A stretch of 64,000 nt of DNA from positions 26,780 to 90,779 of the forward strand of contig JAGVNG010000017.1 of assembly GCA_020053375.1 (NCBI GenBank), read 5' to 3'. Within the stretch, counting starts at the first letter, position 1. The number at the start of each line of letters is the position of its first letter. Below, one piece after another: positions 38,839 to 56,271 of this stretch. The notes under the pieces were generated by a model that searched no databases, had not been told where the DNA came from, and worked only from the letters and a program-made list of their open reading frames with translations. Source of the DNA: Nanobdellota archaeon (lineage in GTDB: Archaea; Nanobdellota; Nanobdellia; Pacearchaeales; GW2011-AR1). The position numbers and the translations under genes were made by a program.

Positions 38839-39735
38839 ATGAATAAACAAAGTAATAAAGGATATAAAAACATAAGTTATCATAAACCAAAAGAATGTCC
38901 TTATTGTAAGAACAAGAACATTGTTAAGTTTGGATATAGATATAATTGCACGAAGAAAAAGCAACGTTGGAAATGTAAAGATTGTTTTAAACTCTGGGTT
39001 ATAGAAGATGGTTTTTGGAAGATGAAAAAGACAAGAGAGTTGATAACTCAATGTTTAAATTTGTATATGAACGGAATGTCTTTAAGGAAAGTTGCAAGGC
39101 ATATCAATCAATTTTCAGAAGTAAAGACGACTTATAGAAGCGTTCATAATTGGTTAATGAAGTATAGTTTTATGCTTAATCCTTTTTCTCAAACAATAGA
39201 TTATGATTTATCAAGAGTTTATCATGTTGATGAGATTTTTGTTAAGTGTAAGGGTGAACAACATTACTTTTGGGATATTATAGACAGAGATACAAGAGTT
39301 TTAGTTGCTAATCACTACTCAACTAAAAGAGATGGCAGGAGTGCAAGAACATTATTCTTGAAAGTCAAAAATCCACCAATGAGATTATTTTCTGATGGCT
39401 TGCAAGGATATAGAAAAGCATTTAGAAAAGTTTGGGGGCAGAAAACAAGAAGGCAGGATAGATTAATCTACACAAGATTAAAGCAAAGCCAAGATAGAAG
39501 AAATAACATAGTTGAAAGAATACAAGGAACAATCAGAGAAAGAGTAAAGGTTATGCGGGGATTTAAGGCAATTTGGAGTGCTAAAGCATTTCTTGAATTG
39601 TTTGCAGTCTATTATAACTTCTTGCGTTATCACGAAGGTATAGATAGCACACCAATAGAAAAAGCAGGAATTAACCTTAATCTCGAAGGCAACCAATGGC
39701 TAAATCTGATTTATAGGAGTAAGGGAATATTTTAA
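38839..39735 (+). mobile_element. IS6-family transposase gene with N-terminal zinc finger (IS ends not resolved)
   Basis: CPYCKN...CTKKKQRWKCKDC zinc finger, DDE-type core, C-terminal RNNIVERIQGTIRERVKVMRGFKAIWSAKAFLELF block characteristic of IS6/IS26-family transposases. Confidence 0.7.
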
Positions 39736-40182
39736 CTAAAATAATGAACCCTTAAAAACCGAATCCAATTTAATCAGAGAATCAAAATCAACTTTAAATA
39801 TAGAGCCCATATTAACATTGAGATTTATAGCAATATTCTTTCTCTCTTTAGATTTTGTAGGACTTTCTATCAATTCAATGCCCTCAGAAGTGCATTTTAT
39901 ATCTTTTCTAATTCCTGAAAGGTCTTTGTAAGAGTAAGTTATCAATCCTTTTTGCTCAAGAAATTCCATAGATTGTTTTACTCTTTCTTTATCAAAATCA
40001 CTAGCCTCAATAATCTTTAGTTGATTGGTCTTTTTTTCTTTGTAAATATATGCTAAGATTTTTATTGAATCTTCTATTATAGCCATATAATTTGATAATG
40101 GGTATTGTTTATAAGTTTTATTAAGATTCTCTTTATTGGTCTTTTCCGAAATATGTTTTAGTTTCAATCTTGTCTGCAACAA
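39736..40182 (-). CDS. Winged-helix protein (probable true start near 40086)
   Basis: ...KTNQLKIIEASDFDKERVKQSMEFLEQKGLITYSYKD... wHTH-like; stop codon abuts the transposase stop. Confidence 0.4.
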   Translation of the reverse strand: MLQTRLKLKHISEKTNKENLNKTYKQYPLSNYMAIIEDSIKILAYIYKEKKTNQLKIIEASDFDKERVKQSMEFLEQKGLITYSYKDLSGIRKDIKCTSEGIELIESPTKSKERKNIAINLNVNMGSIFKVDFDSLIKLDSVFKGSLF

Positions 40183-40789
40183 GCTCTAAACCATATTTAT
40201 CTAAATCATCACAGATGTCTTGAAAGTTTTCTTTAATAAACTTTAACGCCTCTTCAGAATTTATTTCTCCCTTTGGAAATTCTAGATGTTTCATTACTTC
40301 TAGAGCATAATTCTCTATATCTTCATCCTTTAGGTCTTCCCATTCATCTTCTTCTTCATTAATTTCATTTTCGTCAGGTCCGGACTCATAAGAATCTTTT
40401 GCATCTTCAAACCAGTTGGTTTTTATTTCAAAAAAGTGATTAACACCATTTAATGGGCAACTTAATATAAGAAAAGGAATTTCCCCTATATTTTGCTCTA
40501 AAATTCTTTCCGACTTAAAATTTTCTGGCTCAGTAACATCCTCATTTTTTACTTCCAAAGCACATAGATAAAACATTTTTACACCCATCTCTTTTGCTTG
40601 CTCTAAGAAAATTGCTAAATCCTCATCCCACTCTATTGCATTTTCTATATTCAACTTTCTTCTTGCAATATCGTAAAATTCTTCTAACATATCCTGTTCT
40701 TTATTTTTAATCTCAAATAATTTTATGCTATTCAATTTACAAAAATCTATTATCTTCTGTTTAACTGATTTTAAATTTTCATCACTCAT
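40133..40789 (-). CDS. Acidic hypothetical protein
   Basis: 218 aa, Asp/Glu-rich (DENEINEEEDEWEDLKDEDIENY); 8-nt overlap with upstream gene. Confidence 0.45.
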   Translation of the reverse strand: MSDENLKSVKQKIIDFCKLNSIKLFEIKNKEQDMLEEFYDIARRKLNIENAIEWDEDLAIFLEQAKEMGVKMFYLCALEVKNEDVTEPENFKSERILEQNIGEIPFLILSCPLNGVNHFFEIKTNWFEDAKDSYESGPDENEINEEEDEWEDLKDEDIENYALEVMKHLEFPKGEINSEEALKFIKENFQDICDDLDKYGLELVADKIETKTYFGKDQ

Positions 40790-41666
40790 CTTTTTTCTCC
40801 AAATCTTCTTCGTAGAGAGTTATTTCTTGCTTACAATGTGGGCAGTCTGTTTCAATACCTTCCTTTAAGTTATCTTCTTCATCTAATTCTAAGGTAATAA
40901 CTTTGCCACATTCAGGGCATACAAAATCTGTTTCTTCCTCTTCACCTTCTTCTGTTTTGTATTTTTTTAATTTCGGCACCTTACCTTTTACAGAAGAAAC
41001 TTTTTGTTCAATCGTATCATATAAGTCCTTTATGCTTGTATCTTCATTTGCCATATCTTTATCTGGGAGATTATCATCTGCAGTATCAATATTAATCTCC
41101 TTCCAACCAACTCTCTTTTTCTCAATAGTTTCCTTCAAACTTTTTTCCCTTTTTGTTAATTTGCTACTTCCTGTCTTTACTTCAACAAAAATGACTCGGT
41201 CAATTTTATCTTCATGCAAACCTTGAAAAACAATATAATCCACTGGTTGTCCTAAAAAGTGCATATCAGAAGGCTCATAAGGTAACTTTTTTAAGAAAGG
41301 GATAAATCTCTCAATGAATTTTCCGACTAAACTCCTTCTTGAACTAGAAACTGATTTTGACCTTATGATTTTTTCAGAGTCTTTGAATAATCTTTTTAAT
41401 TCTTCTATGTCTGAAATGTATTTAACCTGCCATTCTTTTGCCAATTTTTCTAAATGAGTTTTATTCTCCTCTTTAATCTTTTCTAATAGAGAATTACCTT
41501 TCTCTATTTTTACTTCATAATCCTTCTCAAGATTAGCTATTTTCTTTTCCCATTGAGCATTTAATACAGATTCTCTATCTCCAAATTTCTGTTTTTGTGT
41601 TAAATATCTCCCAATGAAATATCCTATAATCAAGGAAATAATGATAATAATTATCCATTCAATCAT
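40782..41666 (-). CDS. Membrane-anchored coiled-coil protein with PD-(D/E)xK nuclease-like domain and C-terminal zinc ribbon (RmuC-like architecture)
   Basis: N-terminal TM helix IIIIIISLIIGYFIG, long Lys/Glu coiled coil, VDYIVFQG...IDRVIFVEVKTGSSKLTKRE (D...E-V-K core), C-terminal CPECG...CPHCK. Confidence 0.5.
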   Translation of the reverse strand: MIEWIIIIIISLIIGYFIGRYLTQKQKFGDRESVLNAQWEKKIANLEKDYEVKIEKGNSLLEKIKEENKTHLEKLAKEWQVKYISDIEELKRLFKDSEKIIRSKSVSSSRRSLVGKFIERFIPFLKKLPYEPSDMHFLGQPVDYIVFQGLHEDKIDRVIFVEVKTGSSKLTKREKSLKETIEKKRVGWKEINIDTADDNLPDKDMANEDTSIKDLYDTIEQKVSSVKGKVPKLKKYKTEEGEEEETDFVCPECGKVITLELDEEDNLKEGIETDCPHCKQEITLYEEDLEKKDE

Positions 41667-41716
41667 AATTTTAACAAAGAAAGCTGTTATAAAAATTTAT
41701 CTAAAATAATTATTTT

Positions 41717-42016
41717 TCATTCCAAATACTTTTTTCTTGCGATTTTCTTCCTAGTCTTTTTACCCTTCCTTAATTCAGCTTTATCTAACTGAATATATAC
41801 AAAAACAAAAAAGGCTATTCCAATAAAGTAAATAACAAGTGGAATCATAAGTCCTACTTCTTCAGGTGGAAAAAGAAGAAAAGATATAATCAGAGAGGGT
41901 ATTATCCCAAATATGATCCAAATTATACATGACATAATAATAAATTCACTCCAACCCCAAGGATTATCAGAAACATAGCTATTATAATATATTGGATTAG
42001 GGTGATTCCATCCCAT
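41717..42016 (-). CDS. Small membrane protein (2 TM)
   Basis: Two hydrophobic helices, basic C-terminus. Confidence 0.4.
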   Translation of the reverse strand: MGWNHPNPIYYNSYVSDNPWGWSEFIIMSCIIWIIFGIIPSLIISFLLFPPEEVGLMIPLVIYFIGIAFFVFVYIQLDKAELRKGKKTRKKIARKKYLE

Positions 42017-42084
42017 CTTGTTCTAATTAGTTCATTGTTTTTATTTGTTTAGGTCTTTTAGAGAATTAGAAAGTTTTAAATTAA

Positions 42085-42378
42085 TCAACCGATAACTTCA
42101 CAGAACCTAAGAAAGTTATCTTTAAGAGGATTGCCTTCAAGTGAAACAAAATTAATTTTTTTATTTTTTAGGTAAAATTTCTCCTGCTGAGATTTTATTA
42201 TTTCCTCAGCCTGTTCATAGTTTATTACATTGCCAGAAAATTTGGTTGTGATGAAATTTAAAACTAGAGAAGATTCTGCATAGATACATAGAGCTAATAA
42301 TGATTTGAGTACTAATTTTTTGATGTTCTTTCTAACTTTTGTCATATATTTTGTATCAAACCCTCTATATTTAAGCAT
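42085..42378 (-). CDS. Hypothetical small protein with hydrophobic N-terminal segment
   Basis: 97-aa ORF. Confidence 0.35.
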   Translation of the reverse strand: MLKYRGFDTKYMTKVRKNIKKLVLKSLLALCIYAESSLVLNFITTKFSGNVINYEQAEEIIKSQQEKFYLKNKKINFVSLEGNPLKDNFLRFCEVIG

Positions 42379-43675: not shown

Positions 43676-43750
43676 AGCAGCGTGGAGGAGCCTGGAGTCC
43701 TCACCGGGCCCATAACCCGGGGATCGGTAGTTCAAATCTACCCGCTGCTA
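43676..43750 (+). tRNA. Initiator tRNA-Met (anticodon CAU)
   Basis: AGCAGCG acceptor with A1:U72, anticodon stem with three consecutive G:C pairs (CCGGG-CCCATAA-CCCGG), GGTAG-TTCAAAT-CTACC T-arm: archaeal initiator features. Confidence 0.8.
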
Positions 43751-43841
43751 CTTTTATTTTTGGCTAAAAATCAAACATTTTTTAAATTGCTTCTGACTTA
43801 ATATTACATAAAAAGAGGTTTTGTTAACTGATTAAATTAAA

Positions 43842-56170: not shown

Positions 56171-56271
56171 GCGGGTGTGCCGGAGTGGTCAAACGGACAG
56201 CCCTTAAGAGCTAGAGAGCTAAGTGAGGCTGTGGCTTAGTGCCTGCGAAGGTTCGAACCCTTCCATCCGCA
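56171..56271 (+). tRNA. tRNA-Leu (anticodon UAA) with ~17-nt intron after the anticodon loop
   Basis: GCGGGTG acceptor, 3-bp D-stem CCG/CGG, CAGCC-CTTAAGA then a ~17-nt insert before the matching GGCTG strand, long variable arm, GAAGG-TTCGAAC-CCTTC T-arm, CATCCGC-A 3' end. Confidence 0.6.

What the first reader, a model, noticed from the sequence alone, without database searches (positions are those of the whole stretch)
39736..42378. Minus-strand five-gene unit next to tRNA-Ser/rnhB encoding a membrane-anchored coiled-coil PD-(D/E)xK nuclease-like protein, an acidic protein and a wHTH protein
The unit runs from 42378 down to 39736. It encodes a 97-aa protein, a 2-TM protein, and a 294-aa protein with an N-terminal TM helix, a long coiled coil, a D...EVK nuclease-like core and a C-terminal CxxC...CxxC ribbon (RmuC-like architecture). 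These are followed by a 218-aa strongly acidic protein and a winged-helix protein, with overlapping start/stop codons. The unit is flanked by an IS6 transposase and remnants of an ImmA-like/zinc-ribbon module, and lies near tRNA-Ser, a classic integration hotspot. The combination of membrane sensor-like anchor, nuclease and acidic partner is not a described defence or DNA-uptake system that I recognise.
Basis: inference. Interest (0 to 1): 0.6.

Follow-up and report, generated by a model that had tools for sequence, protein, structure and literature searches.

The report
Membrane-tethered Hjc-like nuclease with acidic partner
The proposed five-gene system is really one member of an already catalogued but never tested family of membrane-anchored DNA-cutting enzymes (PF10107/COG4741) in a DPANN archaeon. 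It is coupled here to a very rare acidic protein whose few relatives also sit beside DNA-repair nucleases, and the other genes are unrelated neighbours.

Summary
All five minus-strand ORFs exist as described. Only ORF3 (294 aa) and ORF4 (218 aa) overlap, by 8 nt.

**ORF3.** It is not a new architecture. It matches Pfam PF10107 Endonuc_Holl (COG4741) at E=1.6e-34. It has the family's N-terminal TM helix and an invariant E119/D143/E162-x-K164 motif, described computationally in 2005 and never characterised. Its homologues in DPANN archaea lie in changing housekeeping neighbourhoods. In four distinct loci they sit next to radA, in three different orientations.

**ORF4.** It has net charge -31, no Pfam match, and only eight relatives among 1.84 billion representative proteins. 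Those relatives include:
- two in or abutting Mre11/Rad50-like operons;
- one in a conjugative-like element;
- one C-domain fused to a membrane Mrr nuclease;
- one fused to an ORF3-like tail in a close relative of this genome.

**ORF5.** This wHTH protein has a homologue directly after an ORF3 homologue elsewhere, with no ORF4 between them.

**ORF1 and ORF2.** No relatives were found, but they were tested only shallowly.

**Other tests.** There was no PADLOC hit for ORF1-4, no integrase and no att repeat.

**Best reading.** ORF3 is a membrane-tethered recombination or branched-DNA nuclease with a lineage-specific acidic accessory protein and a regulator. It is not a five-gene defence or uptake system. 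Interest is modest.

The parts
40782..41666 (-). ORF3, 294 aa: PF10107/COG4741 Endonuc_Holl nuclease. Layout is TM anchor, ~80-aa coiled-coil stalk, minimal PD-(D/E)xK core, acidic linker, Cys4 zinc ribbon.
   Evidence: Pfam E=1.6e-34, residues 56-192 cover model positions 23-158 of 159. All 80 homologues carry PF10107. AF2 mean pLDDT 77.8.
41595..41666 (-). ORF3 residues 1-24: single N-terminal transmembrane helix. The basic residues (R20, K25, K27, R31) follow it, so the rest of the protein is predicted to face the cytoplasm.
   Evidence: Kyte-Doolittle maximum 2.43 over residues 1-24. The positive-inside reading is inference. PMC1189080 predicts the same orientation for the family.
41082..41351 (-). 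ORF3 residues 106-195: nuclease core with E119 (helix 1), D143 and E162-V-K164.
   Evidence: These four residues are invariant in 31 homologues at 31-78% identity and in the core alignment A4. AF2 secondary structure is helix 108-121, three strands, helix 172-182. The core is basic, pI 9.6.
40785..40931 (-). ORF3 residues 246-294: acidic CPxC...CPxC zinc ribbon. This tail is variable: absent, single or double in homologues.
   Evidence: Alignment A1. pLDDT above 90 for residues 250-290. It is 53% identical to the ribbons at the C-terminus of the ORF4 homologue P0083.
40133..40789 (-). ORF4, 218 aa: acidic protein whose start overlaps the ORF3 stop by 8 nt, with GGAG about 10 nt upstream. It has an N-domain (1-~130), an acidic linker and a C-domain.
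   Evidence: Sequence. Net charge -31, pI 4.3. No Pfam, NCBIfam, PADLOC or PHROG family. Only eight relatives among 1.84 billion representatives.
40154..40357 (-). ORF4 residues ~145-212: helical C-domain with the signature (D/E)EWEDLxxEDIExY...FIKxNFxEI..E.DxxGL..IA. It is a mobile module found in other proteins.
   Evidence: pLDDT about 90 for residues 150-217. It recurs in P0077, P0085 and P0086 (two copies each), P0087 and P0088.
39736..40086 (-). ORF5, 116 aa from ATG 40086: small winged-helix (MarR/TrmB-like) protein, the likely local regulator.
   Evidence: HTH_24 E=6.7e-4, below the Pfam cutoff. The public gene call uses this start. A homologue (29% identity, E=3e-9) lies 5 nt after an ORF3 homologue in L119.
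41717..42016 (-). ORF2, 99 aa: orphan protein with two TM spans, 50 nt upstream of ORF3. Not shown to belong to the module.
   Evidence: Hydrophobic spans 20-52 and 51-80. No family hits. No relatives in 120 fetched loci or in viral contigs.
42085..42378 (-). ORF1, 97 aa: basic orphan protein starting 30 nt after the rnhB stop. Not shown to belong to the module.
   Evidence: No family hits. No relatives in the fetched loci or in viral contigs.
38839..39735 (+). IS6-like DDE transposase whose stop codon abuts the ORF5 stop. An incidental insertion, not part of the module.
   Evidence: PF13610 E=3.7e-19; NCBIfam IS6 107.8 bits, below the 125 cutoff. Fragments at 90% identity or more occur on other contigs. 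No clear terminal inverted repeats.

Best explanation
ORF3 is a member of the PF10107/COG4741 family. It is a metal-dependent endonuclease with a minimal Hjc/YraN-like PD-(D/E)xK core (E119, D143, E162, K164). An N-terminal membrane anchor and a long coiled-coil stalk, probably dimerising, hold the core on the cytoplasmic face of the membrane. A variable acidic zinc-ribbon tail follows the core.

In DPANN archaea this is a chromosomal, housekeeping-type gene. I infer that it cuts branched or recombination-intermediate DNA in the RadA pathway.

In this lineage it is co-translated with ORF4, a rare acidic two-domain protein. ORF4's relatives are embedded in Mre11/Rad50-like operons or fused to other membrane nucleases. 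I infer that ORF4 is an accessory or regulatory partner: either an inhibitory, DNA-mimic-like 'tail in trans', or an adaptor to the end-processing machinery. ORF5 is a small wHTH regulator that is ancestrally paired with the nuclease gene.

ORF1, ORF2, the IS6-like element and the HExxH/zinc-ribbon ORFs are unrelated neighbours.

Shown: family membership, motif conservation, the ORF3/ORF4 overlap, and the genomic associations. Inferred: substrate, topology, the ORF3-ORF4 interaction, and the regulatory role of ORF5.
For: - Family and motif: Pfam PF10107 E=1.6e-34. E119, D143, E162 and K164 are invariant. The published family description matches (PMC1189080; PMC3424549).
- Housekeeping context: ribosomal L1/L10/L12, adenylate kinase, eIF2-alpha and S8e/Sm-type neighbours.
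- Recombination link for the family: radA (Pfam Rad51, E<=2e-78 where complete) lies next to PF10107 genes in four distinct DPANN loci. The arrangement is convergent in L006/L011, divergent in L017 and tandem in L025 and L037. The nucleases are 39-82% identical to ORF3.
- ORF3-ORF4 coupling: 8-nt ATGAGTGA overlap with an upstream GGAG. In L090, a contig 89% identical in DNA, the ORF3 tail and the ORF4 C-domain are colinear and in one frame. The ORF4 homologue P0083 carries zinc ribbons 53% identical to ORF3's.
- ORF4 family and nucleases: P0083 lies between Mre11-like and Rad50-like genes with gaps of 6 and 2 nt. P0086 overlaps the start of another Mre11/Rad50-like pair. P0087 fuses the C-domain to a TM segment and Mrr_cat (E=4.6e-34).
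- ORF5: a homologue lies immediately downstream of a 77%-identical ORF3 homologue.
Against: - No member of PF10107 has been characterised, and no solved structure is detectable by sequence. Fold searches with the AF2 model returned only coiled coils and zinc fingers.
- radA is not in this window. It is adjacent in only about 4 of 25 DPANN loci, and shared ancestry may inflate that signal.
- ORF4 is absent next to every other ORF3 homologue examined, so the nuclease does not need it.
- None of the ORF4 homologues P0082, P0083 and P0086 is next to a PF10107 gene.
- The ORF4 family has only about 9 members, so guilt by association rests on five contexts.
- L090 is an 819-nt contig at 1.5x coverage whose nuclease part is truncated at the 5' end.
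Confidence: 0.45

Rival explanations
1. ORF3 is a gatekeeper or salvage nuclease. Tethered at the membrane, it degrades incoming foreign DNA (defence) or imported DNA for nucleotide salvage in an auxotrophic DPANN cell. ORF4 modulates it.
For: - Membrane tether.
- Feder & Bujnicki proposed exactly this for COG4741.
- The PARIS study lists PF10107 among nuclease domains used to annotate AAA15/21-ATPase defence proteins.
- ORF4 homologues P0082 and P0086 lie in integrase-bearing elements that also carry HamA/helicase, Cas4-like and T4SS genes.
- DPANN dependence on external nucleotides is general knowledge, not tested here.
Against: - No PADLOC match for ORF1-4.
- The DPANN homologues sit among ribosomal, translation and radA genes, not in defence islands.
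- No DNA-uptake channel genes were seen beside the gene here or in the loci examined.
- The core occurs in only 6 of 50,697 phage records.
Confidence: 0.2
2. The ORF3-ORF4 adjacency is accidental. ORF4 is a lineage-specific gene, possibly derived from a mobile element, that landed between the nuclease gene and its wHTH partner and does something unrelated.
For: - L119 has nuclease followed directly by wHTH, with no ORF4.
- ORF4 is absent from all other PF10107 loci.
- The closest full-length ORF4 homologue lies in a conjugative-like element.
- An IS6-like element sits immediately downstream.
Against: - The 8-nt start/stop overlap with an upstream SD-like GGAG is typical of co-translated partners.
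- Two independent module exchanges link the two protein types: Endonuc_Holl plus ORF4 C-domain in P0077, and ORF4-like plus ORF3-type zinc ribbons in P0083.
- ORF4 relatives recur beside other nucleases.
Confidence: 0.2
3. ORF3 and ORF4 form a nuclease-inhibitor (toxin-immunity-like) pair. ORF4 is a DNA-mimic anti-nuclease comparable in charge to ArdA or Ocr, and the block is a decaying remnant of a mobile element.
For: - ORF4 has net charge -31 and lies immediately downstream of a basic nuclease core of pI 9.6.
- P0082 lies in a T4SS element, where anti-restriction genes are typical. That placement rule comes from my own knowledge of ArdA.
- IS6-like and HExxH fragments lie nearby.
Against: - No similarity to any Pfam immunity or anti-restriction family.
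- Most ORF3 homologues exist without such a partner, in housekeeping contexts, so ORF3 is not an obligate toxin.
- No integrase and no att site.
Confidence: 0.1
4. One reading: a novel five-gene membrane-sensor/nuclease/acidic-partner system inserted at a tRNA hotspot.
For: Five co-directional ORFs lie between rnhB and an IS element. GC is slightly low, 0.29-0.30.
Against: - ORF1, ORF2, ORF4 and ORF5 are absent from 89 loci with ORF3 relatives.
- Intergenic gaps of 46-68 nt contain TATA-like AT boxes before ORF2, ORF3 and ORF5 (weak evidence in an AT-rich genome).
- rnhB separates the block from tRNA-Ser, and there is no att repeat.
- No PADLOC hits.
Confidence: 0.05

Closest known systems
[quoted passage not shown] 2012)
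   Same: ORF3 has the N-terminal TM helix, the minimal PD-(D/E)xK core and the E-(V/I)D-E(V/I)K motif. The HMM score is far above threshold. ORF3 is a member.
   Different: ORF3 and its Woesearchaeota relatives add a long coiled-coil stalk and one or two acidic Cys4 zinc ribbons. Here it also has a co-translated acidic partner. The family has no experimental characterisation in the literature I could search.
Archaeal Hjc and bacterial YraN (UPF0102) Holliday-junction-resolvase-type nucleases
   Same: Same superfamily and the same catalytic motif arrangement. PMC1189080 reports a profile-profile link to YraN at P~1e-5. The radA adjacency in DPANN loci fits a recombination role.
   Different: ORF3 gives no direct sequence hit to any solved Hjc or YraN structure. 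It is membrane-anchored and has a smaller core. Junction specificity is untested.
RmuC
   Same: Analogous layout: N-terminal hydrophobic and coiled-coil region followed by a PD-(D/E)xK domain. This is from my own knowledge of RmuC.
   Different: A different Pfam family. No RmuC match appeared among ORF3's hits at E<=1.
Accessory genes of archaeal mre11-rad50 operons (e.g. herA-nurA) and membrane-associated SbcCD-like pairs with AAA_27 ATPases
   Same: ORF4 relatives P0083 and P0086 are operon partners of Mre11-like and Rad50-like genes. One of the Rad50-like proteins has AAA_27 and a central TM segment in place of a zinc hook.
   Different: No sequence relation to HerA or NurA. In the window ORF4 is paired with a PF10107 nuclease, not with Mre11/Rad50.
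Acidic DNA-mimic or nuclease-inhibitor proteins (ArdA, Ocr, colicin immunity proteins)
   Same: Small, very acidic protein encoded directly after a nuclease gene.

Membership tests
PF10107 / COG4741 Endonuc_Holl | Match to the family HMM above Pfam's gathering score | tested here: met
   119.4 bits against a cutoff of 23.8, E=1.6e-34, covering model positions 23-158 of 159. All 80 homologues are annotated PF10107.
PF10107 / COG4741 Endonuc_Holl | Conserved E-(V/I)D-E(V/I)K catalytic motif | tested here: met
   E119, (V)D143 and E162-V-K164 are invariant in 31 sequences and in the core alignment. The motif is as given in PMC1189080.
PF10107 / COG4741 Endonuc_Holl | N-terminal hydrophobic helix (membrane anchor or leader) | tested here: met
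   Residues 1-24, Kyte-Doolittle 2.43. Conserved in the alignment.
PF10107 / COG4741 Endonuc_Holl | Minimal PD-(D/E)xK fold (alpha-beta-beta-beta-alpha-beta) | tested here: inconclusive
PF10107 / COG4741 Endonuc_Holl | Nuclease activity | not testable with these tools
   No biochemical data for any member in the searchable literature.
RmuC (PF02646) | Match to the RmuC HMM | tested here: not met
   RmuC does not appear among the best 25 of 39 Pfam hits at E<=1, all 25 with E<=0.16.
Known anti-phage defence systems (PADLOC-DB v2) | Any component matching a defence-system model | tested here: not met
   No hits for ORF1-4. ORF5 gives only weak wHTH-type hits to CARF/JetD models, E>=2.6e-4.
tRNA-integrated genomic island | Integrase gene plus a direct repeat of the tRNA 3' end bounding the insert | tested here: not met
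   No integrase ORF between smc and rnhB. No repeat of tRNA-Ser sequence. rnhB lies between the tRNA and the block.
IS6 family insertion sequence (flanking element) | DDE_Tnp_IS240 transposase and short terminal inverted repeats | tested here: inconclusive
   PF13610 E=3.7e-19, but the NCBIfam IS6 score of 107.8 is below the 125 cutoff. No convincing terminal inverted repeats were found.
   0 of 89 loci with ORF3 relatives encode an ORF4 relative. None of the P0082, P0083 and P0086 loci encodes PF10107. The only recurrence is a fused fragment in a contig 89% identical in DNA (L090).

The most novel reading that the evidence does not exclude
ORF4 defines a new, very rare two-domain protein family. 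Its ~70-residue helical C-domain (EWEDLxxEDIExY...) would be a dedicated accessory or regulatory module for membrane-associated DNA nucleases in DPANN archaea: PF10107 Hjc-like nucleases, Mre11/Rad50-like complexes including a Rad50-like ATPase with a TM segment instead of a zinc hook, and Mrr-type nucleases. Together with the radA-PF10107 linkage, this would point to a membrane-tethered recombination and DNA-end-processing apparatus in these reduced archaea.
Probability: 0.25. Interest if true: 0.55.

Novelty: new member of a known kind. Interest (0 to 1): 0.3.

Why it matters
PF10107/COG4741 has been catalogued for twenty years without a function. It is widespread: relatives were found in 358 of the genome-collection stretches scanned, from DPANN archaea to Gemmatimonadota.

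The repeated radA adjacency in DPANN loci gives a concrete, testable hypothesis: a membrane-tethered resolvase or branched-DNA nuclease. The ORF4 family's attachment to Mre11/Rad50-like operons and to other membrane nucleases supports the same idea. It also offers a candidate regulatory partner to test biochemically.

For the scan itself, the main result is negative. The 'novel five-gene system' dissolves into one known-family gene, one rare partner, one regulator and unrelated neighbours.

Tried and rejected
- **Enlarging the ORF4 family.**
  - The k-mer search found only ORF4 itself.
  - The profile search recovered four known members.
  - A back-translated EWEDLxxEDxxxY pattern gave 19 metagenome loci, of which only one was real and was already known.
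  - Viral contigs gave none and plasmids gave none.
- **Mobile or viral origin of ORF1, ORF2 and ORF5.** No viral relatives were found.
- **Island boundaries.** No att-like repeat and no IS terminal repeats.
- **The source contig.** It was not in the gene-position index, so I could not test synteny of smc-rnhB in sister genomes.
- **Rejected by eye.** An 'ALEVK' string in the ORF4 N-domain is not a nuclease motif, because it is not conserved in P0082-P0084.
Full report
**1. What is there**

The ORF scan confirms five co-directional minus-strand ORFs between rnhB and an IS element:
- ORF1, 42378-42085, 97 aa
- ORF2, 42016-41717, 99 aa
- ORF3, 41666-40782, 294 aa
- ORF4, 40789-40133, 218 aa
- ORF5, 40182 (TTG) or 40086 (ATG) to 39736

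tRNA-Ser(GCT) lies at 43242-43160 and RNase HII at 43080-42409, upstream on the same strand. smc (38239-35378) lies beyond the IS element.

Reading the DNA gives these spacings:
- rnhB to ORF1: 30 nt
- ORF1 to ORF2: 68 nt
- ORF2 to ORF3: 50 nt
- ORF3 and ORF4: an 8-nt overlap (ATGAGTGA), with GGAG about 10 nt upstream of the ORF4 start
- ORF4 to the ORF5 ATG: 46 nt

The public gene call for ORF5 uses that ATG (116 aa). The 'overlapping start/stop codons' therefore apply only to ORF3/ORF4.

Composition checks show:
- ORF3 has a single N-terminal TM segment (residues 1-24).
- ORF2 has two hydrophobic spans.
- ORF4 has 57 D+E against 26 K+R (pI 4.3).
- Within ORF3, the nuclease core is basic (pI 9.6) and the tail (residues 196-294) is acidic (net -18).

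GC in this stretch (0.29-0.30) is slightly below the window mean, but three other parts of the window are equally low.

**2. ORF3 belongs to a described family**

Pfam gives PF10107 Endonuc_Holl at E=1.6e-34 (119.4 bits against a cutoff of 23.8). Residues 56-192 cover almost the entire model. RmuC does not appear among the listed hits.

All 80 homologues from the 5.8-billion-cluster search carry PF10107. Where named, they come from Woesearchaeota or Nanoarchaeota MAGs. The identical protein sits on a 94.6-kb contig and JGI names it 'predicted Holliday junction resolvase-like endonuclease / Zn-ribbon protein'.

In an alignment of 31 homologues at 31-78% identity, the invariant residues include E119, D143, E162 and K164, as well as G115, P123, G139, P141, G166 and R173. 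The C-terminal zinc ribbon is absent, single or double among them.

This is the description Feder & Bujnicki gave for COG4741 in 2005: a TM helix, a minimal core of four strands and two helices, an E-(V/I)D-E(V/I)K motif, a predicted cytosolic nuclease domain, and a profile link to YraN (PMC1189080). Steczkiewicz et al. list the family as PD-(D/E)XK family 85 (PMC3424549).

I found no experimental work on it and no solved structure detectable by sequence.

The AF2 model (mean pLDDT 77.8) has these elements:
- a helix spanning residues 2-103;
- helix, three strands and helix over residues 108-182, carrying the catalytic residues;
- a confident four-stranded ribbon over residues 245-284.

Fold searches on the whole model were swamped by the long helix and the ribbon, so they neither confirm nor contradict the nuclease fold.

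The basic residues follow the TM helix and the tail is a Cys4 zinc site. I therefore infer that the nuclease faces the cytoplasm.

**3. The five genes are not a conserved unit**

A scan of one genome per species found 358 stretches encoding ORF3 relatives. They come from DPANN archaea, Methanosarcinales, Gemmatimonadota, Acidobacteriota, Spirochaetota, Chloroflexota and Moraxella.

tblastn of ORF1, ORF2, ORF4, ORF5 and the flanking ORFs against the 89 loci held at that point gave no hit.

Close homologues sit in unrelated places:

| Homologue | Identity to ORF3 | Neighbourhood |
|---|---|---|
| P0005 | 72% | between a 23S-IVP-type gene and adenylate kinase |
| P0013 | 82% | between an MJ0043_C gene and radA |
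| P0011 | 83% | directly after ribosomal L1-L10-L12 |
| P0008 | 70% | convergent with a double-wHTH Lrp/AsnC-like gene |

Clustering the neighbours of 82 non-redundant loci found no universal partner.

Two partial recurrences exist, both in near relatives:
- In L119, a 77%-identical nuclease is followed after 5 nt by a 135-aa protein homologous to ORF5 (29% identity, E=3e-9), with no ORF4 between. This suggests that nuclease plus wHTH is the older pair and ORF4 a later arrival.
- In L090 (819 nt, 1.5x coverage), nt 173-447 match window 41239-40965 at 89%, and nt 488-676 match 40350-40162 at 75%. The ORF3 tail and the ORF4 C-domain are colinear in one reading frame (P0077). The zinc ribbon and the ORF4 N-domain are missing. 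The junction is unique diverged sequence rather than an obvious misjoin. The nuclease part there is truncated at the 5' end.

Nothing supports an integration event or a defence island:
- ORF1-4 have no PADLOC hits and no meaningful PHROG hits.
- There is no integrase ORF between smc and rnhB.
- There is no att-like repeat.
- ORF1, ORF2, ORF4 and ORF5 have no relatives in viral contigs.

**4. What the contexts say about function**

*(a) The nuclease family and radA.* RadA lies beside PF10107 genes in four distinct DPANN loci, in three arrangements:
- convergent in L006/L011;
- divergent in L017, where the nuclease is 39% identical to ORF3;
- tandem in L025 and L037, where the nucleases are short (135-146 aa).

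RadA was identified by Pfam Rad51 (E=2e-78 to 4e-87). The L025 copy contains an intein, and only the N-terminal HhH part lies on the L037 contig. Adjacency that survives rearrangement across this divergence points to homologous recombination. It is the best functional clue for the family, but it covers only about 4 of 25 DPANN loci. radA is not in this window.

*(b) ORF4.* ORF4 has no Pfam, NCBIfam, PADLOC or PHROG match. JGI's name for it, 'predicted peroxiredoxin', is unsupported.

An exhaustive phmmer search of 1.84 billion representatives found eight other proteins:
- **P0082** (45% identical). It lies after a 316-aa double-wHTH gene in an element with a tyrosine recombinase, a VirB4/TraC-like ATPase, a TrbC-like pilin, MT-A70 and HamA plus a helicase. 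That wHTH gene is homologous, at E=6e-25, to the one convergent with the P0008 nuclease.
- **P0083** (39% identical). It has the ORF4-like N- and C-domains followed by two zinc ribbons 53% identical to ORF3's. It lies between Mre11-like and Rad50-like genes with gaps of 6 and 2 nt, on a chromosomal-looking contig seen in 17 assemblies. The best NCBIfam hits for those neighbours are Mre11 and Rad50, below the equivalog cutoffs. The Rad50-like protein has AAA_27 and a central hydrophobic segment, with no CxxC hook.
- **P0086** (a Cys-rich N-terminus and two C-domains). It overlaps the start of another Mre11/Rad50-like pair inside an integrase-bearing element.
- **P0087.** Its layout is Laminin_G_3, TM, C-domain, then Mrr_cat (E=4.6e-34).
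- **P0085 and P0088.** They carry the C-domain with other N-termini.

So the ORF4 family, tiny as it is, keeps company with DNA nucleases, several of them membrane-associated. It also exchanges modules with ORF3-type proteins.

**5. Most likely mechanism**

*Shown:*
- ORF3 is a PF10107 member with intact catalytic residues and a membrane anchor.
- ORF4's start overlaps its stop.
- The family-level links to radA and to Mre11/Rad50 exist.

*Inferred:*
- ORF3 dimerises through its stalk and cuts branched or recombination-intermediate DNA at the inner face of the membrane.
- The acidic zinc-ribbon tail and the acidic ORF4 act on the basic nuclease head. They either restrain it, like a DNA mimic, or connect it to the end-processing machinery.
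- ORF5 regulates transcription of the locus.

I put this at about 0.45.

*Rivals:*
- a gatekeeper or nucleotide-salvage nuclease, the original 2005 speculation, 0.2;
- accidental ORF3-ORF4 adjacency, 0.2;
- a nuclease-inhibitor pair on a decaying mobile element, 0.1;
- the five-gene system as proposed, 0.05.

**6. Novelty and verdict**

- ORF3 is a new member of a known, uncharacterised family.
- The 'system' is not supported.
- The residual novelty lies in the rare ORF4 family and in the radA/PF10107 linkage. Both are leads, not findings.
- Interest is 0.3.

Noticed in passing
L091:3508-16215: The contig carrying ORF4 homologue P0082 holds what looks like an integrated conjugative-type element. 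It has a tyrosine recombinase, TrmB and double-wHTH regulators, a 975-aa VirB4/TraC-like ATPase (PrgI-like N-terminus, TM segment), a TrbC/T4SS-pilin-like gene, an MT-A70 methylase and HamA plus a helicase (Hachiman-like). By eye, the ATPase C-terminus contains 'PDLVF...IAIEVETGS', a PD-(D/E)xK-like string, but no Pfam nuclease hit was obtained.
   Followed up: partly
L093:7068-9134: A Rad50/SbcC-like ATPase (AAA_27/AAA_23, 688 aa) has a strongly hydrophobic segment (about residues 336-358) in the middle of its coiled coil and no CxxC zinc hook. This suggests a membrane-inserted apex. A 79-aa TM protein follows it.
   Followed up: partly
L025:1539-4037: The radA gene next to a short PF10107 gene in a Pacearchaeota MAG is interrupted by an intein with a LAGLIDADG domain (832-aa product).
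   Followed up: no
window:43676-43751 and window:56171-56271: The tRNA callers disagree. ARAGORN reports tRNA-Met(CAT) at 43676-43751 (+), which Rfam at gathering threshold does not list. Rfam reports a 101-nt tRNA match at 56171-56271 (+), possibly intron-containing, which ARAGORN misses.
   Followed up: no
window:38598-38744; L120:3597-4079; P0085: A small zinc-ribbon motif ((Y/W)xCxxCxYxW...KPxxCPxC) recurs three times. It appears in the 48-aa ORF beyond the IS element. It appears at the N-terminus of a 160-aa ribbon-TM-acidic-tail protein 6 nt downstream of ORF3 homologue P0011. It also appears at the N-terminus of P0085, which carries two ORF4 C-domains. The similarity is weak (E~1e-4) and the motif is common, so its significance is unclear.
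   Followed up: partly
window:38839-39735: The stop codon of the IS6-like transposase (39735) directly abuts the stop codon of ORF5 (39736) on the other strand, so the insertion may have altered the ORF5 C-terminus. Fragments of the transposase at 90% identity or more occur on other contigs. No terminal inverted repeats were identified.
   Followed up: partly
window:43304-43612: A 102-aa ORF between tRNA-Ser and tRNA-Met has a coiled-coil N-half and a C-terminal CxxC...CxxC pair. It has no family assignment.
   Followed up: no
P0018 and P0051: Two different PF10107 homologues are both listed with a longest contig of 31,523 nt. They may be paralogues on one contig.
   Followed up: no
window:40133-40789: JGI's public product name for ORF4, 'predicted peroxiredoxin', has no support in Pfam or NCBIfam searches and looks like an annotation error.
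   Followed up: yes
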